Below, piece by piece: positions 38,668-63,957 of a stretch of DNA of 64,000 nucleotides (position 1 is the first letter of the stretch; each line of letters starts with the position of its first letter). The stretch is from positions 130,256 through 194,255 of the forward strand of contig NW_001865085.1 in the NCBI RefSeq assembly GCF_000002865.3. Reading direction: 5' to 3'. The translations under genes and the position numbers were made by a program. This stretch comes from Monosiga brevicollis MX1. Lineage: Eukaryota. The notes under the pieces are model-generated. The model had not been told where the DNA came from. It saw only the letters and a list, made by a program, of their open reading frames with translations, and made no database searches.

Positions 38668-38787
38668 CCTCCACTTTTGACTGAAAGAGAGAGAGAAAGA
38701 GAGAGAGAAAGTGAGAGAGAGAATTGAATGAGGAAGAGAGAGAGAGATGAATTGGTTTGAGTGAGAGAGAGAGAGATGAATTGGTTG

Positions 38788-38995: not shown

Positions 38996-39405
38996 AAAGA
39001 GATCAAAGCGTCATCAACATCAATGGCTTTGGCTTCGCCTTCTCAATGTTCTTTTGGGGGTCCCTAAGTCAAAAATTGATCGGATGGAACAGGGCATCTT
39101 ATGGGAGGAAGATTGCTATGGAAGTGCGGGCGGCGGGCGGTGATGGAGGGCGGTTATTAGAACGGTCGTCTTTGCTGCCGTTGCTATTCAACGTTCATTC
39201 GCCCTCGGCGTCACTGTCTGAGCCAGAGTCGGTGTCCGTGTCGTCTGCATGTTGAAGTGGGTAGCCAGTTGTCGTAGCATTTTGAAGGAGTGGTCAATGC
39301 AGGGCGGCAACAGTCTTGCTGTCGAGGGCGTTGAAGGCGGCGAGCAGATCCGCCTCGACCTGGTCAAAGCTGCGGTCCGCGCTGTAGCTGTGGCCAACTT
39401 GGTCC

Positions 39406-42400: not shown

Positions 42401-43214
42401 ACGTCGACGGCCTTCTTACAGCACTTGGCGTGCTCATGTTTGCCGTGAGCCGTGGCCGGGCTCGCGGTACAATTGGCGACTTTTTGGAGGAACGGCGGAA
42501 AGACGCGCCCGAATTGGAAGTGCTGCAGCTCGCGCGCTTCCAGGCAATCGATCTGTGCTACCTGCAGGCGCTCTATGAAGCCATGGAACATTTGCTGGCC
42601 GACACGTTGGTGGCTGATCTAGCCGACGCGTACAAGCAGACCCTGTCGGACACGCTGGCACAGGAGGTGAGGAAATGTCTAGGTACGGGGCAACATCCGC
42701 AAACTGGCCGAGATCAGCTGCCGCCCCGGTTGTTATTGAATGCACTGCGACAACTTGTCGTCCGTTATTTACGTCACAACGACCAAGCCTCGTATCCCGG
42801 GGCGTTTCCGCTTGGCCAAATGTTGAATTACGCTTGGCGCTTTCCGCTTGGTTCTTTCAAGGTATGTTCTGGCGTGGCATGGCTAGTGTGAGATATCCAG
42901 CAGCGGGGCTGATGTTGGCAGGGACCCTGACACAAGAATCGGACTCATGTGTGCTACCATGGCTGCCCTGCTCTGATTGTTAGGAGTTTTCCGAGGATAT
43001 TGATGAGCGGCTGCCGGGGGATCTCCTGCTTGAGCATGTGCACTCGCTGTTCCTGATGTTGGAGAAGCTGCTTCATCAAGACAAGGAGGCACTGCAGGCC
43101 GCGGCAGCGGCCGCACACGTGCCACAAGGCGTTGCTGGGAGTGTGCGACCACCGCCCCAGCGCAAGCTCAAGACGGGTCGCCCCAAACGCACGCAGCGAG
43201 CCAAAAGGACTTAG
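39406..43214 (+). CDS. RNF213-like C-terminal module protein (RZ-type zinc finger plus C-terminal domain); start uncertain
   Basis: FFPG...YQCDCGYQYLVMNCGG...RCPQCPRTLGGNNYH (RZ finger), then DVRGY, RQLSLQTMRTL..LMH, RMEWE, LQHLSLLPDL, GGQQITY, VAQRPL, IDLCYLQALYE and LRQLVVRYL. The last exon has LPGDLLLEH. The order follows the RNF213 C-terminus. Confidence 0.72.
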
Positions 43215-43353: not shown

Positions 43354-44547
43354 TTACCATGTTGTTGTGGCTAGCGCAAAACCAGCTCGGGAGTCATCCG
43401 TGGGTCCCAAATTCCGCCAAACCCCACCAGCAAGGTCAAGCACGGCGGTTTCGCCCCCGATGATGTTGATGCCTGGAAAATGACTGATGCCAAAGAAAAT
43501 CCAAAGGCTGCCTTGGATAGCAGCGGCACCAAAGTGGGTAAGTCCAACGGATGAAAACTCGTAGGAGAACAGGGACCAGCCCACGGGGGTGAGTTGTTCA
43601 AAGGAGCCAGCGAGGGTTTGGATATGATTTTCGCCTCCCAGGACGAAGACGGTGTTATCAAATACTGCAGCTGCTCCAAATGCGCGAGAAGTGTTAAGGC
43701 TCGGGCCCAAGGACCATGGGGCCCCAGTCGGTAAGGGCGGGCGTGTGAGGACTTGGCGGGAAGCGGCGTGGTCGTGGTTGTAGCCGCCAATGACGAACAG
43801 TGTGTTGTTGTGAGCCACGGTCATGTGCCCGAACAAAGGTTGGAGCAGCGAGGGTTCGGAGCGCCAATTTGCCTCGCCTGGGCCCCACGAGAGGACGGTG
43901 GCGGTGGGCACGCCACTGATGCGGCCCCCAACAACCCAGATGCGTTCTGCCAAGACGGCGGCGGCGAAATCGTACCGTTGTTGCGGCAGATCGGGTACCA
44001 AGCCGGTCGTCCATCCACCGGTGCGGGAAGCAAGCACAAGAGTGGGGGTGTGACTGGAGTCTTGTTGGGGAGTGAGGCCACCGAGGAGGACGATGCGGTC
44101 ATTGTGGGTTACAGCAGCGGCGCGCCACCGGGGGTGGGGTAAGGATGGGCCGTCTCTCCATGTTTGGCCATCAGTGCAACGGACGGAGGAGAGGTTGGTC
44201 GTGGAATCGTAGCCCCCAATAACACATGCAGTGGTGGCAGTAATCGGCGTTGGCATGAGTTGAGCAAGCTGCTGGGCTTGTGCATTGACTTGGGTCTGCA
44301 GGGCGGCAAGGGTGTGGGTGGTGTTGTTGGCATATGCGGACAAGGCGGCGAGCTGAGCGAGCACATCGACGCCATTGAGCAGGATCTTGCCAGGCGGGGA
44401 GACGGTGCCATTGATATGAAGGTTGCCGCTCTCATCGAGGCTGAAGCGAAACTGATCGCTGGGCGGGGTGTTGGCAGCGTTGGTGAAGACAAAAGGGCGC
44501 ACGCAGAGCAGGGCCGCAACCGTGAGCAAACGAAGAAGTTTCGGCAT
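43354..44547 (-). CDS. Secreted Kelch-repeat protein with an N-terminal trimer-like module, intronless
   Basis: Signal peptide MPKLLRLLTVAALLCV; module SLDESGNLHING...KILLNGVDVLAQLAAL; Kelch repeats (VIGGYD, W..GPSL..PR, VLLGG, WVVGG, FVIGGY, FVLGG). Confidence 0.9.
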   Translation of the reverse strand: MPKLLRLLTVAALLCVRPFVFTNAANTPPSDQFRFSLDESGNLHINGTVSPPGKILLNGVDVLAQLAALSAYANNTTHTLAALQTQVNAQAQQLAQLMPTPITATTACVIGGYDSTTNLSSVRCTDGQTWRDGPSLPHPRWRAAAVTHNDRIVLLGGLTPQQDSSHTPTLVLASRTGGWTTGLVPDLPQQRYDFAAAVLAERIWVVGGRISGVPTATVLSWGPGEANWRSEPSLLQPLFGHMTVAHNNTLFVIGGYNHDHAASRQVLTRPPLPTGAPWSLGPSLNTSRAFGAAAVFDNTVFVLGGENHIQTLAGSFEQLTPVGWSLFSYEFSSVGLTHFGAAAIQGSLWIFFGISHFPGINIIGGETAVLDLAGGVWRNLGPTDDSRAGFALATTTW

Positions 44548-45492: not shown

Positions 45493-46065
45493 TTTTTGTA
45501 ATTGTACCACATGTGAGCCAGATTGAAGCAAGCTTCTCTATCTTCACATAGTTTACATTCAAGAAGCGCACGCCCCTTATGCTTGATCACAAACGATCGG
45601 ACACCAATGACGTGCACTTAACAACAACAGCCAGAGGACAGCCCACGACATCACACAAGGGTGCAGAGAATAGCACACCCTAAGATGGTTTTAAAGGGGT
45701 TAATAGAGTTAAAGTAGCACACGGTCAAGGTTGATCCTCTATACGGCAGCTGTGTTGAAGGACAGTTTGGAGTCAGAGAGAGAGGAAAATAATTTTCAAT
45801 CAATCCCTTTTTTTTTAAAATTTAAACCGGCAAGGGCCTGGCTGGAAGAAGAGGACATGATGACCCAGCTGATGTGGAGAGGTATGTGGCGATGGCGCTT
45901 GATCGTTGGTGGCGGTGGTTGGGGGAGGAGGGCTAGGGAGGCGGGGGAGGCGGGTGATTGCTGTGGTAGCTGTGGTTGGACGATGGGGGATATGGACGAT
46001 GGTGGATCGAGAGGGATTGCTGCTTCGAACACGATGGTAAGCTGATCTGGTTGATAGGCGTAGGG

Positions 46066-47925
46066 ATGTGGCCGCGTCACCGGTTCTCTTTGGGTCTGGC
46101 AGTGGCAATGGCCCTTGTGCTCGCTAGTAAGCTGGTTGTGCTGTATCCTCGAGGCTCCTTTGGTGCATTGGGATCGTGATGCAGCGTCCCGTTCTCATTT
46201 ACCACGGTGCACAGGCACGGGGAGCCGCGCGGAAATGGTGGTGTACATGGGCGGCTCATGCGAGGACGCCAACGTCACCGTGGACGATGCCTTGCTGATC
46301 TTTGACGCAAACACCACATGCTACAGCGTTATGGGTGGCTTCTACTCCTTTGCTTGCTCGGACAGCGGCGTGCCCGAGGCGTACAAATGGAGCGACTACC
46401 AATGCACCACCGGCACCTTTGTCAACCTCTCCTCTGGCTGCTTCACCTACGGCAGCCGAAACGCCCATGTCATGTGTGCCGAGGCCAGCGTTTTTCCCAC
46501 AAACACAAGGGCCGTCATGTCCGCCTTTGAGGCGGTTGACTGCTCGGCTGGCAAGATTGCGGACCTTGCCATTCGCGACACCTGCGCCAACGCCGTGACC
46601 CCGGCCTTTGCCATTGGCTCGGGCGCGACCAGTGCCGACGCTTGCGACGATGATGATGGCTGTCTAAGATTTTTCCATGATAGCCTGGGATATGGCCATA
46701 TGATGGCGACCTGCTATTCTGATAATACCATCCTGGTCGAGATCTTTAGCGATCAGTGTGACGAGGGCTACTATCATGCCCGCGTGTCTCCGGGAGCCTG
46801 CCTCACCATTGGCGTAAACTACACCGGTGGTTCGTTCGAGCTCCCCCCCCCCCCCCCCCCCCACCTGCTGTCCGGCACTCTTTTTCATGTTGTTTTCGCG
46901 TCCTTGCTGACCCTGCGCCCCCTTTGCCTGTGTGCCCACATGTCAGGAAACACCGCGTTTTTTAATCAGTATGTGGCCGCCGAGCTACTTTCCTTCTCTT
47001 TTACTTGCCTCGACTCGGCCCCCACCGAGCAACCTCCGTCCACGCCCAGCACCCTCTATCTGGGTGGCTCTTGTGACAATGCCACCTCCATTGATCAAGC
47101 GGGGGCCGCGTTTCTGGTTGACGAGTGCTACGAGGTTGCCAATGGCCACTACACGTTTGGCTGTGATGAGAATGGGTACCCCATTGCCAGAGAGTATATG
47201 GATACCAACTGCGGCGGCACCTACGTCTCCACAATTCTCACCGACAATTGCTTTACACAAGTGGATGAAAACTCTCGCATCACCTGCTCCGATGCCACAC
47301 CCACCAGTACCACGGCCTTTATGGGCGCCTACACCTCTGAAAACTGTGGCGATGATGTCATCACCTACGTACCCCTCCGCGACAGCTGCGCAGCCGCCCC
47401 GTCCCTGGCGGTGGCACTGAGCGGCGGCGTCAATGCTTCCGAGCTTTGCAACGGCGATGCCGGTTGCATGGCCTCGTTCCAGTCCGACCTCGGCTATTTG
47501 CGCATTGTCGCCACCTGCCATGCCGACGGCTTGATCAACGTACTCTTTTACACAGAGGACTGCGCCTCCATCAAGCACAACCTCACAGTTTCCGAAGCAG
47601 CGTGCCTGGACGTTGGCACCAATCTCACTGGTGAGTCTCGACTTGTCATTGAGTTTCTCTTTCGCCTCACGCTCAACCTGTGTCTTGACAAGCGGCCTCG
47701 GGCTCACGCTTTGCAACTGCCACAGTGAGCACCTCGAGCTTCAATCAATTTGTCCGAGCTGGACTCGGCTCCCTCTCCTTCTTTTGCATCGATTCTGCCG
47801 CAGCATCAACGACCACCACGACCTCGACAACAACCACATCGTCCGCGACTGCCCCGCTTGCCGCCCTGCCACACATCCTGCTCGTGGCCCTCTTGTGTTT
47901 ACCTCTACTGTTTGTCGCCGCATAA
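46066..47925 (+). CDS. Cys-rich surface glycoprotein with two tandem ~230-aa repeats, a Thr-rich stalk and a hydrophobic, GPI-signal-like C-terminus
   Basis: Signal-peptide exon MWPRHRFSLGLAVAMALVLA. Repeats YMGGSC...CY...YSFAC...RDTC...LGY...ATC and YLGGSC...CY...YTFGC...RDSC...LGY...ATC. Ends STTTTTS...LPHILLVALLCLPLLFVAA*. Confidence 0.8.
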
Positions 47926-48315: not shown

Positions 48316-49647
48316 TTACACGCAGGTGACGAGACGCTTGGTGCCGATCAGACCAGCTTCGGCAGCGGCAGACACAGGCACGAAGCGTTCCGTGTCCGGC
48401 TGGGGATCGGCGGGCTCACCGCTCGTCCCCTCGCGGGGGCGGAAGGGGTGCGGCGCGCCCTCGCCTGACCGGGTGATGCAGCGGGGGTCCACGCCCTGCT
48501 CAGCATCCCACAGCTCACCGTAGGCAAAGACTAGGAAGAGGATGGCGCCGACAAAATAGAAGAAACCGCCGAGCAAGTCAAACCAAATCACGAGCGACTC
48601 GGAGCAGACATCCCGTCGAGCAAAAGGATCGCCTTGGATGGGGGCTTGCAAATCGCGAATGCCGTTCAAGTTGCAAGTCCCCGAAATCATGTAAAAGACG
48701 GAGCCAATAAAAAGCGCCAGTGAACCCCAGAAATAGCTGTTGACAATGCGGGTCCAGAGGGGCCGCTGAAAGTGGTCGGCCGAGTCCACCAGGAAGATGA
48801 AGGTGCCAATGAGAAACCAAGCGCAGGAGCAAAACCAGTTCCACGAGGCGGCGACCGGGTGGCGCTGCAGATAAAAAATTGCATAGGCAAGCAAGAAAAG
48901 CCCTCCCAATGTGAGTGAGAGAACGCCCGTGTGGTATGCCGACCCGGGCCGTCGACTGGGTCGGTCCCAGAGGGTAGAGTAAATGGCGCGGGCTTCGACA
49001 AAGAGCTTGGCCAGGAGAAAGGCAACAACGCCGGCCACCGAGACGTAGACGGCACCATCGTGATCAATGACCTCTTGCATGAGCAATAGGGGGCCTAAAA
49101 AGTAGAGCAGCCCTCCAAGCACAAAAAGCCAACCACCCCACACGTTCAGGTCGTTGTAGTATCGACCCACGCTGCGCCAGAGGCCCCGCCAGCTGTTGAA
49201 GACGCGGAGATGGCGCATGGTCCGGCCCATGATGAGCATGGTGTGAACGACGCCCTTGTGAGCATGAGCATTGCCGACAAAGTCGGGTCGGGGCAGATCG
49301 AGCGTGGAGCCCCACAGGTCGGCCTCGCGCATCAATCGTCGCATGCGGGCTTCGCGCCAGGTCTGGCGTAGGCTGGTCAGCTGGCTGGGGTGGGCCGAGA
49401 GATTGTCGTAGTCTTCGTTTGCGGCGTCGCCCAGGGCTGGTACCGACGCGTTGATGGCCGTGGTGGTGTGAGCAAGTGGGACTGGGGCATCAATGTTGAG
49501 CCACTCTGCTGGGGCAGATGCAGGAGAGCCGCGCTCAAAGGTATTCGTCTCCTCGATCATGGTTTGATCGAGGTCGTGCCCGAGCACAGAGACGATGTGC
49601 TCGGCAGAGCGGGGCGTGGAGTCGGTGGACGGCGGAGTTGGCTGCAT
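48316..49647 (-). CDS. Multi-pass membrane protein, YrhK-like repeats (paralog 1), intronless
   Basis: About 6-7 hydrophobic helices with F..G...F..G patterns (WGGWLFVLGGLLYFLG; LALFIGSVFYMISG; LLGGFFYFVGAILF). Confidence 0.8.
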   Translation of the reverse strand: MQPTPPSTDSTPRSAEHIVSVLGHDLDQTMIEETNTFERGSPASAPAEWLNIDAPVPLAHTTTAINASVPALGDAANEDYDNLSAHPSQLTSLRQTWREARMRRLMREADLWGSTLDLPRPDFVGNAHAHKGVVHTMLIMGRTMRHLRVFNSWRGLWRSVGRYYNDLNVWGGWLFVLGGLLYFLGPLLLMQEVIDHDGAVYVSVAGVVAFLLAKLFVEARAIYSTLWDRPSRRPGSAYHTGVLSLTLGGLFLLAYAIFYLQRHPVAASWNWFCSCAWFLIGTFIFLVDSADHFQRPLWTRIVNSYFWGSLALFIGSVFYMISGTCNLNGIRDLQAPIQGDPFARRDVCSESLVIWFDLLGGFFYFVGAILFLVFAYGELWDAEQGVDPRCITRSGEGAPHPFRPREGTSGEPADPQPDTERFVPVSAAAEAGLIGTKRLVTCV

Positions 49648-50732
49648 GGCGGCGGTTTGCAAGCCACGTGTAGTTTCGTCGTTTCGATGAGGAACAGAAT
49701 TCTCGCTGCAGAGTCAATGCGGACCTTGCGGGGCAGAAGCAGAGGTAGTCTCGCTGCGCTCCGGGTGGGCTTTTTGACGGCACGGCTTGCTGCTGCAGCC
49801 GCGCCGCCAAAGGTGATGCCAACTCATGCCGTGCTCCCAAGCTCTGCTCTAAGACTGGTCAAGGCGTGTGGGGGGAAAAAGGCAGTCAGGGGACGCAGAG
49901 ATGCGCCCGATGAGGTCAGTGGAAAATGCCACTCCCTGGGCTTTGCTGTTTGGATAAAGCAGATGCTTGGCCCGTGGCGGTTGTGCGCATCCGGGAGATG
50001 ATGAGCAAGCGTGGGCCTCGGGACGGGATCATGGGTTGGCTGGTGCATTGTCGGGGGCACGAGCGCAAGCGTGGAGGCGTTTCGAGCCGCTTGGCGTCGT
50101 CAAACCCCATCACGCAGCTGCGTCTTGTGCAAGCCGTTTGGTCGAGGCACCAACCGAACTTGAGGGGACGGAGCGAAGCGGAGCGGGGGGGGGGTGGCGT
50201 GACAACATGAGAGCATGGGCGTGTGGGGTCAGGAAAAAAAGAGTACAAAGCGGTCAGTACCCCCGCTGATAGCGTGGCCGTGGAGCCCCCTACTCCCCCC
50301 TCCCCCCAACAAAGGGGGCAAGCGAGTTCTTGCGGTTGCTCCCGATGAATTTTGTGAAAATTGAACACGAGGTCATCAGTCAGAGTTGAGGTGGGGAGGA
50401 CAAGCACCAGAGGGAGAGAGGCCTTTGATGGGTTCCAAAGCATTACACCTCCTTGCATCCGGCGTCAGTCACGGTCGGTCACGCGACGCGATGGTGTGCG
50501 CATTGAAACCGTTCATCCCACAATCGGACCCAGAGTGCAGCTGCAAAAACCAGCACCAAAATGGTAGGCAACGGTGCAAGGGCACTAGGGAGTGACAGGT
50601 GGCACCATCATCCCTGTCCTTCTCCCCGCTCCCGCTCCCACCCCACCATGTCCTCTTCCTCTCAACCGCGGACCGGGGCCACAAAGCACACACAACACCC
50701 AGCACGAAGCGCCCGCTCTGCCCGCTCTGCTC

Positions 50733-51755: not shown

Positions 51756-52976
51756 TTAGACGCATGTGACGGTGCGGGTGGCATGGGCATGGTGCTGGGG
51801 AAAGCGCTCGAGGTCAGGCTGTGGATCGTGGTGCTCGTGTTTGGTTCCTTCGCGGGGGCGAAACGGGTGAGGTGCGCGAATGCCGTTGCGGTCTACGCAG
51901 CGTGGATCCGGGCCGCGTCGTGCTTCGTACAGCTCGTCGTAGGCAAACACCAGGAAGAAGACTGAGCCGAGAGTGTAAAGGAGGCCACCCAGAATATTGA
52001 ACCAGGCCACCATGCTCTCGGAGCAGAGTTCCAGGGGGGCAAAGCTGGCCGCCGTCGAGACGGCGCCGTAATCGCGAACACCGCTGAGGTCACACGTTGT
52101 GGAGAAGATGTAAAAGACCGAGCCTAAGAAGAGGCCGAGCGCACCCCAGTAATAAAAATTGCTGAGCTGCGCAAAGAGGGGCCGGGAAAATTGAGCAGCT
52201 GAGTCGATGCTAAAGACAAAGGTTCCAAAGAGAAAGCCAACGGCAGAGAGGAAGGAGCACCACGAGGCGCTCCGCGGATCATCACGGAGGCTGAGGATGG
52301 TGGTTGCTAGAAAGAAGAGGCCACCCACAGTGAGGGAGATGACGCTCACGTGAAAAGCTGTGCCTGGTCGACGCGTTTTGCGTTCCCAAAGCGTGGCGTA
52401 GATGGCGCGGAGCTCGACAAAGATTTTGGCAAAGAGAAAGAGCACCACGCCCACCATGAGAATAATACTGGAACCATCTGCCGAGACGTGCTTGTTCTTG
52501 CTAAGCCAGGGCCCCAGCGTAAAGAGGATGCTGCCCACCACAAAGCACCAGCCGCCCCAGACGTCGAGGTCGTTATAGTAGCGGCCAACGTTGCGCCACA
52601 GAGTCCGCCAGCTCTTGAAAATGTGAAGATGGTTCATGGTCGTGTCCATGAAGAGCATGGTATGAACGACGCCCCGGTGCTCGGTGGCATTGCCCTCAAA
52701 GTCTGGCGTCGGGAACGAGCTGTTGTTGGCGCCCCAAAGCTTGGTGTCTTGTTCTATTTCGGCGCGGTAGCGGCGTTGGGCCAGAGCCAGAGGCGTCTCG
52801 GCACCACCCACACCGTTTTCGGACAGGCGACCCACGGACACGGGTGAATGTGTTACAAGGTGGCGCCCAACGCAATCCGCCTCTGGTGCGTCTGCGCTGA
52901 CAGTGCCAGCCCCGTCGGCGTGCCACTTCGGTTCTGCGCGGGCCCCACTGGAGGCTCGCACGTTCTGGTTTGACAT
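51756..52976 (-). CDS. Multi-pass membrane protein, YrhK-like repeats (paralog 2), intronless
   Basis: Collinear with 48316..49647 (PDF.GNA..H.GVVHTML, VGRYYNDL.VWGGW, CSES, PHPFRPREGT...DPQPD.ERF, VTCV*). Confidence 0.85.
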   Translation of the reverse strand: MSNQNVRASSGARAEPKWHADGAGTVSADAPEADCVGRHLVTHSPVSVGRLSENGVGGAETPLALAQRRYRAEIEQDTKLWGANNSSFPTPDFEGNATEHRGVVHTMLFMDTTMNHLHIFKSWRTLWRNVGRYYNDLDVWGGWCFVVGSILFTLGPWLSKNKHVSADGSSIILMVGVVLFLFAKIFVELRAIYATLWERKTRRPGTAFHVSVISLTVGGLFFLATTILSLRDDPRSASWCSFLSAVGFLFGTFVFSIDSAAQFSRPLFAQLSNFYYWGALGLFLGSVFYIFSTTCDLSGVRDYGAVSTAASFAPLELCSESMVAWFNILGGLLYTLGSVFFLVFAYDELYEARRGPDPRCVDRNGIRAPHPFRPREGTKHEHHDPQPDLERFPQHHAHATRTVTCV

Positions 52977-53330
52977 GCTGGCAACATCAAGGCAAGGCTA
53001 AACGCGGTCAAGAGAGCGGGGCAAGAGAAAGGAGGCGTGTTGGTGGGTCAAGAGAAACAGCAGCAACAGTGGCAGCCGACCGGGGTCCGCGCTGAGATGG
53101 GGTCAGAGGGCAGCCAAACAGCCCTACACGGTGTGACGATCGATCCCAGCCGAGCCAACAGACACGTGGTAAATGCCTTGCCCTGTCCGTCTCCTCGCCC
53201 AGTAGTAAGGGCAAGGTTGGCTCCCCGATGGGAAAACCATGACGTTGGCTCTCCCACACAAGAGAGAGAGGACTCCAAGGACGTTGTGCTGTGTATTTCG
53301 TTTGTAAAAGAGCGTGGGGGTAAATGTGTG

Positions 53331-53428: not shown

Positions 53429-53614
53429 GTGAGCGAGCTTCTGGGCCAGGGTGAAGAGGGGGAGGCAGAGTACAAATGGGGTCTCATGGGTCAGCGGGGT
53501 GGTACTCATCAGCAGAAAGAGTTCAGCGGGCAAAACACGGCGACCCAGCGTAGGCGCTGTACCAGATCAATTATTGAAAATGTGTTTGCTTAGCGGGTGT
53601 ACAACAGGAAGGCG

Positions 53615-54981
53615 CTAACAGTAGCATTGCTGGTTGTTGACACAGGTCGAAGAGCTCAGGGGGCTAAACTGTGTTGTAATGGCGTTGACGTCGAGATCCT
53701 CATTGCGGCAAATCAGGATGCTGCCCGTCACTGCCGTGAGGCCGGAGAGGGCGTCCAAATTCTCCAGCTCCGAGTTGTACTAGCGTCATTGGCGCAGAGC
53801 AGGCATCGAGTCGGTGAGAGTGCGTGCGCAAAGTGTGGGGTGACTGCAAAGACCCTGCAGCTGCGCAAGCTTACCTGAATCTTTAGATTCCCATTGATGA
53901 CTGTCAGGCCTTCCAACCCCGTTAGAGATTCCAGCTCCGGGTGAGTCTAAAGACCAAGGTGTGGCGTAGGAGGATACGGCGAGTTGAGCCTAGCAAATTT
54001 AAACTCACACTCGGCCAGGGCTTATGATAGCAAGCGGGCGATTCCTTCCTTACTTGGATCTGCAAATGCGTGCCAATGTGCCGCAGGTTGGCTAGGCCGC
54101 TGATGCTGGCTAGGTCCTCGTTATCCTGACAGCCAAAAGAAAAAAAGAAAAAAAAAAAGAAAAAAAAGAACAATACTATCAATGTAACACGGCTGTCAAT
54201 AACGCGGATCCACGCACATAATAGAGACGCACAAAGAGGGTCAGATACGATCCGATGGACGTCAGGCTGGCAAAGCCGTCAAGATTGGTGATTTTATCTG
54301 CCGCCTATAGCAGACAATCGGTGTGATTGTGACGACCTCAGAGCGTGGGCTTGGTAGCCAGGGCGCAAACAAGCCACAAAGAAGAACGGCGTACATAGAT
54401 AGTCAAAGAACCGCCGATCGAGGCGAGGCTCGCAAACCCATCAACGTTCGTAAAGACTCGGTCTTCCTAAAGCATCGAATCGGGAGGAGGCACAAAAAAA
54501 AAAAGTGAAGTTCCAAGCCAGGACCGCTGCGGCAGAGCTGGCCGGGCCAAGGTAAGACGCAGACACGTGTGGGCCTTACGCGAATCAGGAGATTGCCAGT
54601 GATGGTGGCAACATTTTCAAAGACGGAGAGATTGGCCGTGACGAGCCCGGAACAGCTGTAAAGGGAGACGTCTCCGTCAATGCTGGTTGTATTCCGTGGC
54701 AGGACGCTCAGATCGCAACCCACATTCCCGGTATACACGTATTGCGGAATGGTCGTTGTCATCGTCAGCGCTGTTGTGCCCACTAACATTTCGAGCTTCT
54801 CCTTTAATGACGCTATCTCCTGAAGAATATCACGCCCATCGAGAAGAACACGCGCCTGCGAGCCAGAGGTGTTAATGTACAAGTTGCCTTCGTCATCGGT
54901 CGCGATGATGGGTGGAGGACTGGCCGAAACACTCGCGCAGACCACGCCCAGCGTCAACAGGAGCATGCACCACCCCGCCAT
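53615..54981 (-). CDS. Secreted Receptor-L/LRR-solenoid protein with 1 N-terminal trimer-like module (6 exons)
   Basis: Exons 54580-54981, 54395-54466, 54233-54304, 54054-54125, 53875-53946 and 53615-53779, all GT-AG and phase 0. Repeat consensus xNxxLxxLxGLxxLxxIxGxLxI. Ends TCVNNQQCYC*. Confidence 0.85.
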
Positions 54982-55603
54982 CCCGAATCGCGCAAATCGC
55001 TCGTTGCTAAACGCCCGAGCCCCAAAAAAAAAAAAATACAAGCACGCCACACATCAGACAGCGCTTCTTGTTCTCAATCCAAAATCCCTCACAGCCACGC
55101 CACCAGTCAAGGAAAAAATTTGAAAACAATGCAATTATGTAGATAACCAGCCCCAAACCCAGGCACGCCAGCGCCTCCCTCGCCGACACGCCCCGACCCT
55201 GACATGCACGTACCCCGCCGCCCAAATCGCCGCGACCCGGCGTCCGGTGTTCCAATCAACTGTTGTCAAGTTGTAAAGTACTGTTGCGAACGGTCACGTT
55301 GATTTCCTTTATACCCAAACTGCGTCGCTCTCTAAATTTGAACGGCCTGGTTGCGCTTTCTCTAAGCAGGTTCCATCCTGGCAAACGATCTCTGGATTTG
55401 CCTTGACAGGGTTCGGAAGTGTAAAAAGCATCAAGTCACACTCTCTACATGTCTACTCTTCACCCTCACCTCTCTCTGTATCAACACGCATTTCTTCCCG
55501 CTTCTCTGGCCTCATGTCCCGCTTTTGCTGACAACATCCTGCCTTGACTAATATAAAGGCTTAACCTATATGCGATGTGGTCCTGCCCCGCCGCTCCGTA
55601 GAC

Positions 55604-55877
55604 CCTGAATGCCTGAATGCCTGAATGCCTGAATGCCTGAGAGCTTAAGTACCTGAGTGCCTGAATGCCTGAGTGCCTGAATGCCTGAGAGCCTGGGAGC
55701 GTGAGAGCTTGAGTGCTTGTGTGCCCGGGAGCGTGAGAGCTTGAGTGCCTGAGAGCCTGAGAGCCTACATGCCTGAGAGCCTAAATGCCTGAGAGCCTGA
55801 ATGCTTGAGTACCTGAGAGCTTGAGAGCCTTGAGTGCCTGAATGCCTGAGTGCCTGAGAGCCTGAGTACCTGAGTGC
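55604..55877. repeat. 8-bp minisatellite (CCTGAATG/CCTGAGAG/CTTGAGTG variants)
   Basis: About 30 degenerate 8-mer units visible. Confidence 0.92.
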
Positions 55878-56330
55878 CGACTGGCCGCGAATTTCCCCGA
55901 CCCGCTGGCTACGACTTGCTGGCTCCTGCAACTTGCCGAAGGCTATTTTGGAATCGTATGTAGACACGCCCCTTTCATCTTGTCCGTGTGCGGGCTCTCG
56001 TCTGCGTGTGCTCTTGGACTGCTCTCGCTCGCTTCTGTTGTCGCTTGCGCTCTTGATGCTCCCCTGTGCGTGCTTGTGGGTGAGGATGCGTTGGTGACGT
56101 GGGGAGGAGTACAATCGGTCTTGCGGCACACACATGATGGTCTCAGCTGCACTCCATTGGCGCATCGTGAATAGACTATGGATACAGCTCGCTTTCCCTG
56201 TTTGGCGCGAAAGCCCAGCGCAGCCGTGAAGCTCCTCGGTATCAGGCTTCCTCCTGCACATGACTCGCCACTTGTTCTAGTACCGCCTTTGACCTTATCC
56301 CGTCTTGCTCGATGAACTGCTTCTAGGCAT

Positions 56331-57208
56331 CATGACTGCGGCCTTGGGCCTACTCTCGGACGCGGCGAGTCCACGCAGCGCCCTCCTCGTCACCACCGAG
56401 GTGTGCCACGCAGAACACGAGACGCTCCCTCCAAACTTTCCACCGTCCCCAGGACTTTTATTCTATACCCCAAACGGCTGCCATGAGCTCTTCGGCCTGT
56501 ATTTCAAGTATGCGTGCCCAGGCTTTATCAGCTATGCGCCCCACATCTCTCTCTATGATGACGCAGAATGCACGGAGCACATCGACGAATTTGTTTTGCC
56601 ACCCGATCATTGCTTTGGGCAACACTTGATGGCTTGCGCGCCCGCCTTGCCTAAAAACGTCACCGCCACGCTCGCCTATCACAATGACGCCTCGTGCTCT
56701 GACGATGCCCAGTTGACAGCAACGATGCTCCGGACCGCCTGTCCAACCACCTCGAGCCTCGCCATGGCCCTCTACGGCGACAGTATTGACAGCGTCTGTC
56801 AGGGTGATGCTGACTGTCCACGTCGGCTCCAAGGAGAGTATCTCTACACAAAGGTGACCGGGCAATGCTCAGGCCAACAGCTCTGGCTGACGGGGCATGC
56901 CGAAGATTGCCAGAGCGAGGTCTTCCATGTGGCTGTACCTGCACACGAATGCGTCGCCTTGGACTCATATGTCAAGGGTAGGTGTGTCAAGCCAAGGTCT
57001 CAAGATTCCATCATACGCCCACCTCACCCGCGCTCGCGACCCTGTCGTAGATGTTTCATTATCAAGCTTGGCCCAGACCTTGCAAACCACCGAGGAGCAG
57101 CTGTACATCACTTCAACCTGCGAGCAGAGCAGCGCCAGCTGGCCAGGGCCCTCAGCTGCCCTTTTGCTGATCTTTGGTGTTTTGAGCCTGCTTGCCACCA
57201 TCAGCTAG
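56331..57208 (+). CDS. Cys-rich surface protein with a single repeat and a GPI-signal-like C-terminus (paralog of 46066..47925); 5' exon uncertain
   Basis: C..FKYAC...Y....C...CF....AC...LRTACP...LAMAL..C.GDADC...L...V...C. Intron position matches the repeats of the 46-48 kb gene. Ends SSASWPGPSAALLLIFGVLSLLATIS*. Confidence 0.7.
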
Positions 57209-57376
57209 TACCAGCGTTTTGTTGTGTTGAGTCCGGTATCGGGCCAGAAAGTTTGCATCATCCAGCTTGGTCTGACCCATCCCGCATATTATTCAATTGA
57301 CATGACATCGGGAAGGTGTGACGTCATTCTTTTGACACAATGATGCTCTGCATACAAGACACGCCTCATCACAATT

Positions 57377-59945
57377 TCAACAATCGCTGCAATTTCTTGC
57401 AAAGCAGTACTTGGGAGCCGCGGCGTCGCCAAGCCCAGCCATCTTGTCTTGAGTGACGATTAGGTTCAACAAGGCGTTGTCGCAGACTCGTAGGTACGTG
57501 ACCACCGTCGTCAGGTTACTGAGCCCATCAATCTTCTCGAGAACCGAGTTTCCCTTGACCCAGGAGCAACAAGTTTCAGCATGAGAGCTTCGGACCGGGC
57601 TGCTTTTGACACATTAGACAAGCCCGCGGGACAAACCCGCAATTCAAAGGATGTGATGCTGGTGAGACTTTCAAAACCAGCTAGCAGGCTAAGCCGATCA
57701 TTGTGCTGCAGCAGGGGGAAAGGACGGATTGAGAAATTCTGGCATGGCTAATAAAAGGTTTATCAACGGAGAGACACGTACACGGACACTCATGTCAGAG
57801 CCCAGTTGTGGCAGTTTGTCAAACCCGGAGATGACAGTGAGATTGTCGTTGCTCTGTGGCGTGCAAGCGCAAATGTGTAAATGGAGGTGCAGAGGAAACC
57901 GGCGCCGGCGCCCTTTGTGTCAGAGTGTGATCTGAACAGAGGGCAGGTCTCAAAGGTTGTCGCATCCACCAACCCCAATGTGGAGATAACTGCCAATCAT
58001 CGTCAGGTTACCAAAGCCTGCGATCGAGGTGAGCGCCGGATTGTCCTGAACACAGCGCAGGCATATCGTGAGTGCGTTCCTCTCTACCACCCTGGCACTT
58101 GACAGCACAGGCCCACCTTCACATCCAAGTCGGTCTGAATGGCTTTGAGATTGCCCAGCCCATCAAGGTGCTGTAGCGCCTTGTTATTCTATGAGGCGGG
58201 AGGGCAGCGACGTCGCTGTAATAAGCTGCCTCGTGATACACACGTCTACCCTATCCCCCGTCGTTGAACATGCAAAGAGAAATGAAAGTAAGCAAAGCAG
58301 AATCAACGACTTTCTTGCCGTACGTAGATGAGGAGGTAGTTGCCGATATGCGTGAGGCCAGCGAATCCATTGAGATTGCTGAGACTGTCATGATTCTAGA
58401 ATTGACCAAACGTCGGGTCATGACAGTGCTTGGTCGACGCTGTAGAAGCTTGTCCTTGCTGGCTCACCTCTATGCGAACGTATTCATTGACGTGCTTGAG
58501 TTGTTCAAGCCCCGCGAGATCCTGCAGGACGTGATTCATCTACCTCGCACCATCGTGAGATCATGTCAGGGCGAGAGGCGAGCACAGGAAGCAAAGCCCA
58601 CGCATAAGGGGCCTCACGCCAAGCGTCAAGAAAGCCCCAATGCGGGTCAGGGCTTGCAGACCATGCAGGTTGGTGAGTTTGACATTCGCCTACCACGGGT
58701 CCCGGCAGCCATGAGCACACATTGCAAGGTCGTTTGCCCAGGGGGTTGCGTTGGAGGGCTCACCAGGATATAGAGTTGTTTGCCAATGGACGACAAAGCT
58801 GCCAGCCCATTGATGTTGGTCAGCTGATAGTTGTTCTATTTTGGCGACAGGCATGCGCCCCCGAACAGTTGATCGCACATCTTGGCGTGAGGCAGGTGGG
58901 AGGCGGCAAGGCCTTTGCAATGCCGGAAGGGATTCGACGCACAGAAATGTGTAGGTAGCCACCAATAACCGACAGGCTGGCCAAGCCATTCAAATTAACC
59001 AGGGCTCCGTTTCTCTGAGACCCACACCAAGCCGCGGAAGGGTGCCATGAAGATGGGCAGCAACGGGCGAGGAGGGGAATGGCGGATGCGTAGTTCCTTC
59101 CCTTGACATGCATCAAGGGAGATCGGATGACAGACCTCTATCCGGACGTTTCCGGTGACGTTGCGCAGCTCGACAAGTACGAGCAGGTCGCTCGCTAGCA
59201 GAGCACTGCAACCAGACAGGATAAGATCGCCTCTTATTTCCGTGACGCCAGCAGGCACATTGCTGAGGCTGCACGAGCTTATATTGGGCGAGATCACGGG
59301 CTCAAGACTTGTGGTTGTGGGAGCTGGTGAGGAGGTGAAGATGCTGGTGGTGCGGCCAGCCAGCGCAGCGACAGCCTGCTGCAAGATCGCGAGCTCATCC
59401 AGCAGCGGCAACCCATTGACTGATACTTTCCCGGATCTGCTGCTGTTGAGAATGACATTGCCAAGGGGGTCCAGCGTCATTTCGGCCTGAACGGTTGGAG
59501 AGTTGGCCATGACGCCGGGAGGCGACGATGTAAGCGCTGGGACAAGAAGCTCTATTTGCGCTCGCAGCAGCAACAACTCGGCGCGGACGTCAATGCCATT
59601 GAAAAGAACCGTGCTGCCATTCAAGTGCAAGCCACCGCCATCATCGACGCCAACGGTGACATCCTCAACACTCGAACCAGCCACAGGGGTGGCAGCCGGG
59701 GTCGAGGTCGAGGTCATGGCCGTGGGGGTAGTCCAATCAGAGAAGGCGGCCGTGGCATTCTGTTTCAGGGCGCCTAGCTGCGCCACAACGTCAACGCCAT
59801 CAACCAATACACGTTTCGAGCAGTTGACATGCAGTCGACCTGAATCGTCCACAATCAAGTGGCCATCCAGCACCAGCGCCCTGATACCACCGATCAGCAA
59901 CACCGCCGCCAGCAGCTGCAAAAGCCGTACCCCTCTCCATGCCAT
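57377..59945 (-). CDS. Secreted Receptor-L/LRR-solenoid protein with 3 N-terminal trimer-like modules (11 exons)
   Basis: Exon 1 is 59136-59945. Internal exons of 72 bp span 58943-59014, 58764-58835, 58618-58689, 58468-58539, 58324-58395, 58117-58188, 57974-58045 and 57782-57853, plus a 69-bp exon at 57637-57705. Last exon 57377-57553 ends YCFARNCSDC*. Confidence 0.88.
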
Positions 59946-60037
59946 CACCGAACACTTTGGAGTAATCTTCGTCGTCGACCAAGTCCACCCCTGACATCCC
60001 AAGCCATGGATCGGCCAGCGCTCAAACAGGACCGCCC

Positions 60038-60070
<33 letters not shown>

Positions 60071-60239
60071 GTGCATTTGTCGAAGTTTGTCTGACAACTT
60101 GGAAACTGAGATGATGAAGAGAGGAGAGAAAGGGAGAGGAGAGAAAGGGAGAGAAAGGTAATAACACAACTACCACATGTAAAGGGGGATCAATTGGAGA
60201 GGGTATACACAATGACACTAACTACCACATGTGACAACA

Positions 60240-60316
60240 GGAAACAAAAGAAACAAGAGAGAGAGAGAGAGAGACGAAAAGAGAGAGAGAGAGAAGAGAG
60301 AAACTGAGAGAGAGAG

Positions 60317-60370
<54 letters not shown>

Positions 60371-60412
60371 ATTGGTTTGGTTTGGTCGGTTTGAGAAAGA
60401 GAGAGAGAGAGA
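60240..60412. repeat. GA-rich / (GA)n tract in the divergent intergenic region
   Basis: Direct inspection. Confidence 0.9.
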
Positions 60413-60727
60413 GCGTGTGCGTGAGATAGGATGAGGGAGTGGAATCAAAGGAACCAGCAGTAGGAGGAGGACATGGGCTGGAAATGGCGGCGTGGACGAG
60501 GAGATTGGGATGGCGGTGGCACGGGGCTGGAGTGCCAGAGGGGATGGTTGTCGGAAAAGTGGGCAATGAGAGGAGCAGCAGGGGGTGATTGGATACCCAA
60601 CGGTTAGCTCAATACCAGCGTGTGTGTGTTGTGTTGGTGAGTGGTGTGTTTCATGCGAACATGGCGTGGCTCATTTTTTTTGCGTGGGCGTGCTCCTCTT
60701 CTTGGGAGTGATCGATCGATCGCGGTG

Positions 60728-63700
60728 ATGGGGCGCCAGAGTTGCAAGTCGCAGCAATGGGGCCGGTCCTTGGTGCTCATGGCCCTGGCCATGCTGCTGG
60801 CCGGGACGGGAGCACGGCCGACCATGCGCTTGGATGCCGTTGGGAACTTGCGCATCGACACCGGTCCGACCGAGACGGCTGCCAGCGTCTTGCTCAACGG
60901 CGTCGATGCCGTTGGGGCCCTGACCACCCTGCGGCGGGCGATTGCTAATCTGGGCGGCCACATCATCGAGCCTGCTCCCCTTATCAAGGAGCCTGTCGAG
61001 GCAGCCAAGGCTCGCTTTGCCCTGAATGAGTGTGGCCATCTCGTCCTCAACAGCAGCGCGGGCCGAGGCGTTCTGTTGAATGGGATGGACGTCCTGCACG
61101 AGCTGACGCTCCTCCAGCAAGCCACAGAGGCCCTAGCGTCGAGTGCTGCGATCGAGACGGCCTCCACGGCCTCAAGCGCCTCGGTGGCGCCTGTTTCCGC
61201 TTCCTGTTCTAAGCTGATGGATGCGAGGGCCGAAAATTCCATCACGGTCGACTCTGTGGGCAACGTTCATCTCAATTCGAGCGGGATGCAGGCCATATGG
61301 CTGAATGGGCTGGATTTTCTCAGCGCGCTGACCGAGCTGCAAGCCGCGGTCACCCGTCTGGAGCAAGCCACCACGGCGTCTCCGAGCACCTCACCGGTCC
61401 CCGTCCATGTCCATGTGGGCAACGTGGGCTGTGACCTGTCCGCAATCCCGCCCACCACTGCCACCATCCAGGGGAACCTGATGCTCGACCAATGCGGGGA
61501 CGCGTTCACGGGGGCCGGGATGATGGTCTTGAGCCACCTCCAGCGGGTTGAAGGGTCTGTATCCATTTCGGTGCGTCGAATTCGGCACCAACCCAACCTC
61601 TTGAATGCGACCATGATACACGATGCTGTCTGGGACGGTGCTTCACCCTGAGCCCCTCTTGTTCGACGCTAGGGCAATGCTGCTTTGACCCACGTGGATG
61701 GTCTGAGCAACCTCTATTACATCAGTGATAGCCTGACGATTGGCGTACGTGCTGTCGATGCCGTCCAACTGACGCAACCGTTCTTCTTGTGTTTCTGTGT
61801 TTCCGTGTTTATTTACTGACACTTTGATTTTTTTTTCTCCTTGGCAGAACAATGCTGCTTTGACCAGCGTGGATGGTTTGGGGCATCTGATCGACATCGG
61901 CGGCTCCTTGACAATTTCTGTATGCCGACACACACCTATTTTACAGCAAAGCGGCGTGCAAGGTCATGCCCGCATGTTCTCAACCACAATAATGGGTCTG
62001 TGTGACAGGAAAATATGCAGCTGACCGACATTGATGGCTTGAGTGGTCTCAAGTCTATTCCTGGCCATGTTTATCTCTCCGTACGTCAGACGCATCATTC
62101 CGAGCTTTGCAAGGAAAAAGCCGGGACGCTCTTTGGATGGGTATCACCCCTTCAATCATACTCACTCTGGTTTCAACGGTATTATTATCAATATCATTTT
62201 TATGTTTTTCGCAGAACAATGCCCAGCTCACCAATGTATATGGCTTGAACAATCTCCACAACATTAGCGGCAGCTTGCAGATTAACGTGTGTACCTTTGT
62301 GACGGTTTGCCCTGCCCCTGGGCACCATGGCGCTGTCACCCGTTCTTACTTCCTTCTTGGCATGTTTGATCCCTTTGTTCGCAGAACAATGACAACTTGT
62401 TGAACGTGGATGGCTTGAACAATCTCCACATCATTGGCGGCGGCCTGCAGATCAACGTGTGTACCTTTGTCGCGTTTTGATCTGCCCCTGGGCGCCATGG
62501 CTGTCACCACACGTTCTTACTTCCTTCTCTTTGCATGTTTGATCCCTTCGTTGGCAGAACAATGACAACTTGTTGAACGTGGATGGTCTGAGAAACCTCA
62601 GCGCCATTGGCAGCTTCTTGGCAATTTCGGTACGATTACAGCAAGTTTGCGTGCACTCAACCCCAAATGCATGATCGGCTTTTCTCAACCACCAATGGTC
62701 CACGGGACAGAGCAACATGTTACTCACCAACGTTGATGGGTTGAGCGGTCTTGGATCCATCCCGGGTTACCTTAATCTTTACGTACGGTACAGAGCCTGC
62801 CTTGCAACAAAGCAATCAAAGTGTCCTTTGGAAGAATGATTGTTCTTACAAGGCATATTTGCGTAGAACAATGCCGCCCTGTCCAACTTACGCGGTCTGA
62901 ACAGCATTTCCTCCATTGGCCTAGACCTGGCGATTTCTGTATGTGCTGGCAGCAACCTTGGTGGCGTTCTAATTTTGTCCTCACCCTGTAAAACGTTTTT
63001 CGGCAGGCCAATGCCGTTTTGAGCAACGTCGACGGGCTTGGCAGTGTTACGAGCACTGGTGGTCGCTTGTATCTCCAGGTACGTTGTTGAGGGTGTCTCA
63101 TGCTGATGTTGCAGGGTTGGGTCCTGTCCGTCACATTTGGTGTTTCACTGGCTTGATCAGACCAATGTTGCCCTGTCCAATGTTGACGGGCTTGGGAATA
63201 TCATCAGCGTTGGAGGTGACTTGATCGTGCGGGTATGTTTCTGTCCGAGCAAGCCGCGGGTCTAGCCCTCAACCCAATTGGGCTGGTGGTGCGCACTTCT
63301 GAGCGTCTCATGCGGAGGTACATTGCTGGCTGGTAAAGAACAATGTTGCGCTCACCAATGTGGATGGGCTTCGGAGTCTTATAAGCTTTGTTGGCGACTT
63401 GGTCATCTGGGTTTGTCGTCGTTTGCGAGCATGTCATGCCAATGTTTTGTCTGCGCGAGAGCAGTTCGCATTATTTGAAGGTGTACTTTCAAACGTCTTA
63501 TGTGATGCTCTACTGATCGGGGCAGGGTAACGTCGCCTTATCCAATGTGAATGGGCTCATGGGCCTCACAAACGTTGGTTACCTCTTCTTCCACGTACGT
63601 TGTCGCGTGCTGGCGCCATGGCGGTGCTGTGGACTGGTGGACGGAAAGCCGATCAGGATAATGACGTTCCTTCAGGCGTCTCATCGGTTCTTTCTGCTGA

Positions 63701-63957
63701 CCGGACAGAGCAACCACGCCCTGACCAACGTGTACGGGCTTTCGAACCTCCAAAGCGTCGGTGGCTATTTGTTGATTGATGTATGTTGCGCGAAGGCTTG
63801 GCGTGCTGATGTTACAGTGTTGAGTGATGATCGGCGCAACGGGTGAAAATGTATAATCGTCTTGTGCTTTTGCCGGCTGGTGCAGTACCATGCCAGCTTG
63901 ACCAATCTTGATGGGCTGGGAAGGCTCACAAGCGTTGGTGACTACTTGAGCATCAAT
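60728..63957 (+). CDS. Secreted Receptor-L/LRR-solenoid protein with 3 N-terminal trimer-like modules; 14+ repeat exons, continues past window end
   Basis: Exon 1 is 60728-61570. Phase-0 repeat exons start at 61673, 61848, 62009, 62215, 62385, 62558, 62711, 62867, 63007, 63161, 63339, 63526 (69 bp), 63709 and 63886. All are GT-AG bounded and free of stops. Confidence 0.9.

What the first reader, a model, noticed from the sequence alone, without database searches (positions are those of the whole stretch)
53615..63957. One-repeat-per-exon LRR/Receptor-L cassettes: 27 symmetric phase-0 exons across three genes
Seen in sequence: every internal exon in the three genes (4 + 9 + 14) is 72 bp, except two of 69 bp. 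Each is phase 0 at both ends and encodes exactly one solenoid turn (xNxxLxNxxGLxxLxxIxxxLxIx). Any exon can therefore be skipped, duplicated or swapped without a frameshift, and repeat number differs between paralogs. Inference: this architecture allows combinatorial diversification of a binding surface by exon skipping or unequal crossover. It is loosely analogous to lamprey VLR LRR cassettes or Dscam exon arrays, but in a probable unicellular holozoan.
Basis: partly seen in the sequence, partly recalled or inferred. Interest (0 to 1): 0.8.

Follow-up and report, generated by a model that had tools for sequence, protein, structure and literature searches.

The report
Secreted solenoid genes with one-repeat exons
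Three expressed choanoflagellate genes encode likely secreted binding proteins in which each internal exon is one turn of a repeat solenoid; the arrays likely grow and diversify by DNA crossovers that cut inside the exons, not by exon skipping, a design already described in brown algae and animals.

Summary
Observation confirmed: 27 of 27 internal exons in three genes are phase 0/0, 25 of 72 nt and 2 of 69 nt, each one Receptor-L/LRR turn. Gene B is Monosiga brevicollis MONBRDRAFT_30356, Pfam PF01030. RNA-like contigs carry every exon of genes A and B in order; 12 of 12 displayed joints in these genes link neighbouring exons (14 further joints not displayed), and the one variant displayed is a retained intron. 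The DNA shows how the arrays change. Exon C5 is a C6/C4 chimera with the crossover at nt 26-29 of the exon, between near-identical introns. A ~98% identical paralog of gene C parts from it at nt 33 of exon C4. Phase symmetry is a by-product of such duplication, not evidence of skipping. New: all three start with an unannotated ~45-residue module, predicted to trimerise (0.66 vs 0.00 controls), that also heads many other secreted proteins, Salpingoeca included. The exon design is known (Ectocarpus ROCO, human LRR genes); the scan noted ankyrin-exon arrays elsewhere in this genome. Not VLR- or Dscam-like in mechanism.

The parts
54580..54981 (-). Gene A first exon: hydrophobic N-terminus (likely signal peptide), one N-terminal module, Thr-rich linker, Cys cap and first solenoid turn
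   Evidence: spliced contigs
53875..54466 (-). Gene A repeat exons, 72 nt each, phase 0/0: 54395-54466, 54233-54304, 54054-54125, 53875-53946
53615..53779 (-). Gene A last exon: last turn plus Cys-containing C-cap, stop; no transmembrane segment; poly(A) at 53554
59136..59945 (-). Gene B (MONBRDRAFT_30356) first exon: likely signal peptide, three N-terminal modules, cap, first turn
57637..59014 (-). Gene B repeat exons: 58943-59014, 58764-58835, 58618-58689, 58468-58539, 58324-58395, 58117-58188, 57974-58045, 57782-57853 (72 nt), 57637-57705 (69 nt)
   Evidence: one contig of run X5 holds all nine (646 nt between the terminal exons)
57377..57553 (-). Gene B last exon: last turn plus Cys C-cap, stop; missing from the public model P0001, which also lacks exon 57974-58045
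   Evidence: joint 57552-57636
58189..58323 (-). Gene B intron 5 (135 nt, three in-frame stops), retained in an unspliced contig 58159-58353 in runs X3 and X4
60728..61570 (+). Gene C first exon: likely signal peptide, three N-terminal modules, cap, first turn
61673..63957 (+). Gene C repeat exons C1-C14: 61673-61744, 61848-61919, 62009-62080, 62215-62286, 62385-62456, 62558-62629, 62711-62782, 62867-62938, 63007-63078, 63161-63232, 63339-63410, 63526-63594 (69 nt), 63709-63780, 63886-63957; gene continues beyond the window
   Evidence: loose end behind 63957
62240..62586 (+). Recent tandem duplication (period about 170 nt, 88% matches): 3' half of C4 + intron + 5' half of the next exon, twice
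62385..62456 (+). Chimeric exon C5: nt 1-29 identical to C6, nt 27-72 41 of 46 identical to C4; crossover window nt 26-29
60690..62247 (+). Stretch shared with an unlinked or unplaced paralog C' (14 differences in 880 nt of the first exon, rising 3'-ward, alignment lost at nt 33 of exon C4)
   Evidence: runs X3, X4, X5, X8
54775..54909 (-). N-terminal module of gene A (three short strands + heptad helix), predicted homotrimer
59736..59861 (-). N-terminal module B-1
59535..59657 (-). N-terminal module B-2
59352..59483 (-). N-terminal module B-3
60821..60961 (+). N-terminal module C-1
61013..61144 (+). N-terminal module C-2
61238..61369 (+). N-terminal module C-3
44311..44448 (-). Same module at the N-terminus of an intronless Kelch-repeat gene (outside the finding)

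Best explanation
These are three expressed Monosiga brevicollis genes for likely secreted Receptor-L/LRR solenoid proteins whose one-repeat-per-exon arrays most likely arose, and still change, by unequal DNA crossover between misaligned repeat exons, while the mRNA is likely spliced mainly to one full-length form. Shown: the exon layout, splicing, full inclusion in the dominant contigs of A and B, the chimeric exon C5 between two near-identical introns, and a paralog that parts from C in mid-exon. Inferred: one intron entered one repeat at a turn boundary in phase 0; crossovers in the conserved D-G-L core of two neighbouring exons then copied [3' half-exon + intron + 5' half-exon], which automatically gives same-phase introns at the same position and makes hybrid repeats that recombine the variable residues of two parents. 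Predicted: the N-terminal module trimerises (one copy per chain in A; three copies in one chain in B and C may form a pseudo-trimer) and displays the solenoid as a binding head. The ligand is untested; bacterial or viral surfaces are the likeliest guess.
For: Layout. Full inclusion and adjacent joints only: (12 of 12 displayed joints; 288 nt between the terminal exons of A in 3 of 3 RNA-like runs; 646 nt for B in X5). Chimera: 11 of 11 informative sites before nt 26 follow C6, 16 of 17 after nt 29 follow C4, Fisher p 5.6e-7, best of 17550 triplets; introns 4 and 5 z 17.5, best of 406 pairs. Older traces: introns C2/C6 z 5.3, C11/C12 5.2, C9/C13 4.4; the 8 best of 406 intron pairs are all within gene C. 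Paralog C' loses alignment at nt 33 of C4, the same core. Public models of paralogs read through introns exactly at turn boundaries, and two such remnants in MONBRDRAFT_34686 are near copies of each other (by eye). At least 7 further M. brevicollis paralogs carry module + Receptor-L repeats in different numbers. Fold: pLDDT 89-98 over residues 221-420; strand ends at the intron position. No C-terminal hydrophobic segment in A or B. Trimer: ipSAE 0.66 against best control 0.00, runs agree in at least 95% of contacts, pLDDT at least 75 (mark reached by 17 of 29 eukaryotic homo-pairs and 0 of 30 single chains, but by only 1 of 7 without an older solved relative; calibrated on two copies, not three). 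Background: low exon skipping and no 3n bias in unicellular holozoans (PMC6142364, passages).
Against: Only assembled contigs were laid, which drop rare isoforms; 14 of 29 joints and 89 pieces were not displayed, and gene C's own joints beyond C3 were not seen. Only one recent chimera was found among 27 repeats; the next triplets (p 4e-5 and above) are at chance level for 17550 tests. Exons of A and B are old (at most 57% identical within a gene), so these two arrays show no recent turnover. The C' breakpoint rests on one DNA-like contig of depth 3 plus 30-letter loose ends. No positive selection shown: pN at the sheet-face positions 0.41 against pS 0.55 over all positions in 6 closest pairs, positions picked after seeing variability. 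Secretion, oligomer state and ligand are untested.
Confidence: 0.68

Rival explanations
1. Combinatorial exon skipping: the symmetric exons are included or skipped in the mRNA to give a pool of solenoids of different length and surface, perhaps regulated by the bacteria met.
For: All 27 exons are frame-preserving. Skipping of LRR exons is documented in human NLRP3 (PMC6642158, passages) and splice variants in Ectocarpus ROCO (PMC11378527, passages and section 15). Contigs hide rare isoforms and 14 joints were not displayed.
Against: 12 of 12 displayed joints are between neighbours; contigs of A (3 of 3 runs) and B (X5) hold every exon, although a retained-intron variant at 0.34-0.43 of the depth of the flanking contigs did survive assembly in 2 of 3 runs. 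Introns are 68-135 nt, and unicellular holozoans show little skipping and no 3n bias (M. brevicollis appears there only in a reference among the passages seen).
Confidence: 0.12
2. Near-neutral repeat turnover in structural or adhesive coat proteins: crossovers happen because the exons are alike, repeat number only sets rod length, and no changing ligand drives the variation.
For: No pN above pS overall; A and B are old and stable; no signalling domain or anchor in A or B; the same module carries many unrelated heads, as a general display stalk would.
Against: The most variable columns (22, 24, 3, 1) alternate along and just after the main strand, 3.0-3.5 bits against 0.2-1.5 for core columns; the family has at least 11 copies, some near-identical at the 5' end yet different in the repeats.
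Confidence: 0.3
3. Programmed somatic or clonal rearrangement of repeat cassettes, as in lamprey VLRs or as proposed for Ectocarpus ROCO genes.
For: Two breakpoints fall in the same 8-nt stretch of the repeat, which could mark a targeted site.
Against: Complete open genes; 28 of 28 profile hits in the window are the coding exons, none intronic, inverted or orphan; runs match genes A and B with no listed letter difference; the shared breakpoint is also simply the best-conserved part of the repeat.
Confidence: 0.03

Closest known systems
Ectocarpus/brown algal ROCO LRR exons (PMC3341825: abstract, sections 15 and 24 part 1; PMC11378527: passages, section 15)
   Same: One 72-nt exon per 24-residue repeat; variable repeat number; recent paralogs alike outside the repeats and different within them; candidate recognition proteins without a tested ligand.
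   Different: There: cytoplasmic LRR-ROC-COR proteins, phase 2, spare and inverted exons in long introns, reported splice variants and positive selection. Here: Receptor-L-type repeat, phase 0, introns of 68-135 nt without spare exons, likely secreted, no signalling domain, crossover inside exons.
Human LRR gene families with exonic modularity, e.g. NLRP3 (PMC6642158, passages)
   Same: Frame-preserving exons of 69-87 nt matching single repeats.
   Different: Skipping is shown there for NLRP3 exon 5; none seen here.
Receptor L domain, Pfam PF01030 (insulin receptor/EGFR L domains; bacterial and giant-virus Receptor-L proteins)
   Same: 36.8 bits against a cut-off of 21.8; HER3 L-domain matches at rmsd about 3 A over about 140 columns, E 0.002-0.008; the best sequence hits outside Monosiga that carry a name are bacterial; best viral fold match a Tupanvirus Receptor-L protein.
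   Different: Stand-alone solenoid of 6 to more than 15 turns; no furin-like, transmembrane or kinase part in A or B.
Cubilin N-terminal trimer (PMC6283879, passages)
   Same: Right after the signal peptide, three chains form an intertwined beta part followed by a coiled coil that displays binding domains; the predicted trimer here has strand-strand and helix-helix contacts in that order. The likeness was first recalled from memory.
   Different: No sequence match to cubilin in two profile searches of the PDB; homology untested; no amnionless-like partner looked for.
Lamprey VLRs and arthropod Dscam (features recalled; VLR also from a legend in PMC3341825)
   Same: Repeat modules as a possible source of binding diversity.
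   Different: No incomplete germline gene with flanking cassettes; no mutually exclusive exon clusters.

Membership tests
Receptor L domain (PF01030) | Profile score above the curated cut-off | tested here: met
   P0001 36.8 bits vs 21.8; paralogs P0174 27.2, P0131 37.8. Single exons alone score nothing (0 of 27).
Receptor L domain (PF01030) | Right-handed beta-solenoid of about 24 residues per turn | tested here: met
   Model pLDDT 89-98 for residues 221-420 with a strand every 24 residues; LRR matches Z up to 16.3; HER3 rmsd 2.9-3.0.
Insulin receptor/EGFR receptor kinases | Furin-like Cys-rich region, transmembrane helix and kinase | tested here: not met
   A and B end after a short Cys cap, best 19-residue hydropathy in the last 60 aa 1.1-1.2; the end of C lies outside the window.
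Ectocarpus-type shuffling LRR exons | One exon = one 24-residue repeat, same phase both ends | tested here: met
   27 of 27; phase 0 here, phase 2 there.
Ectocarpus-type shuffling LRR exons | Non-coding or inverted repeat exons inside introns | tested here: not met
   28 of 28 profile hits in six frames are coding exons.
Ectocarpus-type shuffling LRR exons | Recent paralogs alike except in the repeat domain; traceable recombination | tested here: met
   C against C'; intragenic chimera C5. Exchange between different genes is suggested, not shown.
Ectocarpus-type shuffling LRR exons | Diversifying selection on the binding face | tested here: inconclusive
   pN face 0.41, core 0.12, pS overall 0.55 in 6 pairs; near saturation, positions chosen post hoc.
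Ectocarpus-type shuffling LRR exons | Splice variants with different repeat content | tested here: inconclusive
   None among displayed joints; contigs only, 14 joints hidden.
Ectocarpus-type shuffling LRR exons | ROC-COR or NB-ARC signalling domain | tested here: not met
   Absent from complete genes A and B.
Lamprey VLR | Incomplete germline gene assembled somatically from flanking cassettes | tested here: not met
   Complete open spliced genes, no orphan cassettes in 64 kb.
Dscam-type arrays | Mutually exclusive choice of one exon per cluster, with intronic pairing elements | tested here: not met
   All exons are joined in series; none of the 24 inverted pairs of 22 nt or more links two introns of one gene.
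Cubilin N-terminal domain | Homotrimer of intertwined strands plus coiled coil | tested here: inconclusive
   Trimer predicted, 0.66 vs 0.00; geometry not compared with the cubilin structure.
Cubilin N-terminal domain | Sequence or fold homology to cubilin 36-135 | tested here: inconclusive
   Not among 8 and 4 hits at E up to 10; the module was not folded and searched alone.
Cubilin N-terminal domain | Docking on an amnionless-type membrane partner | not tested
   No whole genome held.

The most novel reading that the evidence does not exclude
Choanoflagellates run a modular system of secreted binders: one undescribed trimerising stalk (possibly the ancestor of the cubilin N-terminal domain, docking on a shared membrane anchor) carries interchangeable heads (Receptor-L solenoid, Kelch, PQQ/SBBP propellers, EPTP, ALK glycine-rich), and the Receptor-L branch is an actively diversifying prey- or pathogen-recognition repertoire made by mid-exon crossovers within and between paralogs.
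Probability: 0.2. Interest if true: 0.8.

Novelty: new variant of a known kind. Interest (0 to 1): 0.45.

Why it matters
How choanoflagellates recognise bacteria is largely open, and this family offers concrete candidates: likely secreted, multi-copy, variable on one face, with a near-identical pair (C and C') that differs almost only in the repeats. The chimeric exon is a clean snapshot of how one-repeat-per-exon genes arise, and warns that symmetric phase alone is no sign of alternative splicing or exon shuffling in the intron-mediated sense. The N-terminal module has no Pfam family and may be a general display device of choanoflagellate secreted proteins.

Tried and rejected
No whole genome is held, so paralog loci could not be read as DNA. 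No holder on record as RNA and no raw reads were listed; runs X3-X5 are taken as RNA because their contigs are spliced. Junctions inside gene C were not displayed and remain open. Single-sequence fold of P0001 failed (pLDDT 35); the alignment-based one worked. A protein search for C or C' among proteins of 184-588 aa found none (longer ones not searched). A tree of 66 repeats (27 from the window, 39 from 10 other proteins) is unresolved, most supports under 0.9; nearest neighbours were same gene 15, other gene 41, tie 10 of 66, which consensus-like repeats can explain, so it is not counted as shuffling; C3, C7 and one repeat of MONBRDRAFT_29252 group at 0.80. Metagenome scan: 5 loci of 165 candidates, none with AG-69/72/75-GT repeat exons. 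Atlas: one hit at 0.83, a lead only. Pfam on the module: no family above cut-off. Cubilin homology not detected. Horizontal origin of the repeat from bacteria is possible but no tree was made. [quoted passage not shown] Paper searches (listings only) found no description of this family or module. A look-up of earlier findings by the sequence of C found nothing.
Full report
Observation. I built the three gene models from the sequence. Gene A (minus, 54981-53615) has 4 internal exons, gene B (minus, 59945-57377) 9, gene C (plus, from 60728) 14 inside the window. 25 of the 27 are 72 nt and 2 are 69 nt; all are phase 0 at both ends; 29 of 29 complete introns are GT..AG and 68-135 nt long. The pattern is not chance: it matches 25 of 282 stop-free AG-72-GT segments in the window, all of them these exons, 0 of 213 left of 53500 and none in 200 shuffles (the pattern came from the exons). 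The first and last turns sit in the terminal exons with their caps, without an intron at the equivalent boundary. Gene C runs on past the window.

Identity. The first exon of B is identical to Monosiga brevicollis MONBRDRAFT_30356. That model scores 36.8 bits on Pfam Recep_L_domain (cut-off 21.8) but lacks exon 57974-58045 and the true last exon. An alignment-based model is confident over the repeats (pLDDT 89-98 for residues 221-420), one strand per 24 residues, ending where the intron falls; fold searches give LRR solenoids and HER3 L domains. A and B begin with a hydrophobic stretch and end in a short Cys cap with no membrane segment, so they are likely secreted. At least seven more M. brevicollis proteins have the same layout with other repeat numbers (12489, 25069, 34686, 30316, 29252, 27342, 30615). 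Several of their public models read through into introns exactly at turn boundaries (by eye), so the exon design is probably family-wide. Named hits outside Monosiga for the repeat part are bacterial.

Splicing. I laid 4 of 11 listed runs, all contigs. Three are spliced. Of 29 joints 15 were displayed; 12 lie in the three genes and all join neighbouring exons. Contig lengths show all four repeat exons of A in 3 of 3 runs (288 nt between the terminal exons) and all nine of B in X5 (646 nt). The one variant displayed is an unspliced contig over intron 5 of B (135 nt, three stops) in X3 and X4, at depth 28 and 24 against 56-82 for the flanking contigs; it may be a retained intron or precursor. 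Contigs drop rare forms, and joints inside C beyond C3 were not displayed, so low-level skipping is not excluded. Published RNA-seq across eukaryotes finds little skipping and no bias to 3n exons in unicellular holozoans (PMC6142364, passages).

How the arrays change. Tandem Repeats Finder sees a 170-nt unit twice at 62240-62586. Exon C5 is identical to C6 over nt 1-29 and to C4 at 41 of 46 positions from nt 27; 11 of 11 informative sites before nt 26 follow C6 and 16 of 17 after nt 29 follow C4 (p 5.6e-7, best of 17550 triplets), and introns 4 and 5 are near copies (z 17.5 among 406 pairs). The simplest reading is one unequal crossover between the old C4 and C6 in the conserved D-G-L core, which copied half an exon, an intron and half an exon. 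Older traces are introns C2/C6, C11/C12 and C9/C13 (z 4.4-5.3). Second, the runs hold a paralog C' that differs from C at 14 of 880 nt in the first exon, at 0, 2 and 3 positions in C1-C3, at 7 positions plus gaps in intron 3, and stops aligning at 62247, nt 33 of C4 (the intron part rests on one contig of depth 3; the same runs also hold C's own downstream exons without listed differences). Both breakpoints lie in the same 8-nt stretch of the repeat. Such crossovers give same-phase introns at one position automatically, so symmetry is a by-product, and they make hybrid repeats, not reshuffled whole exons. Whether C/C' is gene conversion from the 5' side or duplication followed by fast turnover cannot be told. 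A and B show no recent events (at most 57% identity between exons of a gene). No spare or inverted repeats lie in introns (28 of 28 profile hits are coding exons). The most variable columns (22, 24, 3, 1) alternate along and after the main strand, but pN there (0.41) does not exceed pS overall (0.55) in six close pairs: selection is not shown. The repeat tree is unresolved.

The N-terminal module. After the hydrophobic start, A has one and B and C have three copies of a ~45-residue module; an eighth copy heads a Kelch gene at 44311-44448. It has no Pfam family above cut-off. A profile found 164 proteins at E up to 0.001 (150 listed); I picked 64 of the 150 with a full-length match, most with the module right behind a signal-like peptide, and scanned 39 of them: heads include Receptor-L, Kelch, PQQ, SBBP, DUF5074, EPTP and ALK glycine-rich domains. 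Three copies of A residues 21-72 fold as a trimer with score 0.66 against 0.00 for the best of 3 controls, at least 95% agreement of contacts, pLDDT at least 75 (17 of 29 eukaryotic homo-pairs and 0 of 30 single chains reached the mark, only 1 of 7 without an older solved relative; calibration used two copies). This supports, and does not show, trimerisation; three copies in one chain would fit a pseudo-trimer (inference). The order strands-then-coil recalls the cubilin N-terminal trimer (PMC6283879, passages), but no sequence match was found.

Comparison and verdict. One exon per 24-residue LRR, with variable number and recombining paralogs, is described for Ectocarpus ROCO genes (PMC3341825: abstract, sections 15 and 24 part 1; PMC11378527: passages and section 15), and exonic modularity of LRRs for human gene families (PMC6642158, passages). 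An unchecked note of this scan reports ankyrin-exon arrays in the same genome. So the design is known; what differs is the Receptor-L repeat, phase 0, tiny introns, likely secretion, the mid-exon crossovers and the module. Searches (listings only) showed no paper on this family. It works like the brown algal genes at the level of germline repeat turnover; it fails the defining tests for VLR and Dscam. New variant of a known kind; interest 0.45.

Noticed in passing
window 43354-44547 (-): Intronless Kelch-repeat gene that starts with the same N-terminal module as genes A-C.
   Followed up: partly
window 39388-42891 (+): Long open frame (1167 aa) with an RZ-type zinc finger, PF20173, 44.9 bits; the domain is recalled from the immune E3 ligases RNF213 and ZNFX1.
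   Followed up: partly
window 37063-38682 (-): Frame with a Yippee/Mis18-family zinc domain (PF03226), by recall like the cereblon CULT domain, followed by an acidic tail.
   Followed up: partly
window 55503-57552 (+): Spliced gene (3 introns) between A and B for a Cys-rich protein without Pfam match; its transcript has an 8-bp tandem array (55604-55878) near the 5' end and overlaps the 3' end of gene B on the other strand.
   Followed up: partly
window 46064-47728 (+): Cys-rich repetitive frame, no Pfam match; looks extracellular.
   Followed up: no
window 48316-49713 and 51756-52997 (-): Two paralogous multi-membrane genes with YrhK-like hits (PF14145).
   Followed up: no
P0174 (MONBRDRAFT_34686), P0131 (MONBRDRAFT_30615): Paralogs with very uniform repeats (up to 20 of 24 identical within a gene, 19 of 24 between the two) and two near-identical read-through intron remnants in 34686: a more recent expansion than any in the window.
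   Followed up: partly
P0031 (MONBRDRAFT_12489): Public model fuses a three-module Receptor-L gene to Myb and phosphatase-like parts; probably several genes merged.
   Followed up: no
L001 1-1401: AT-rich (30% GC) uninterrupted Receptor-L repeat protein with signal-like start, membrane segment and short tail in a metagenome contig.
   Followed up: no
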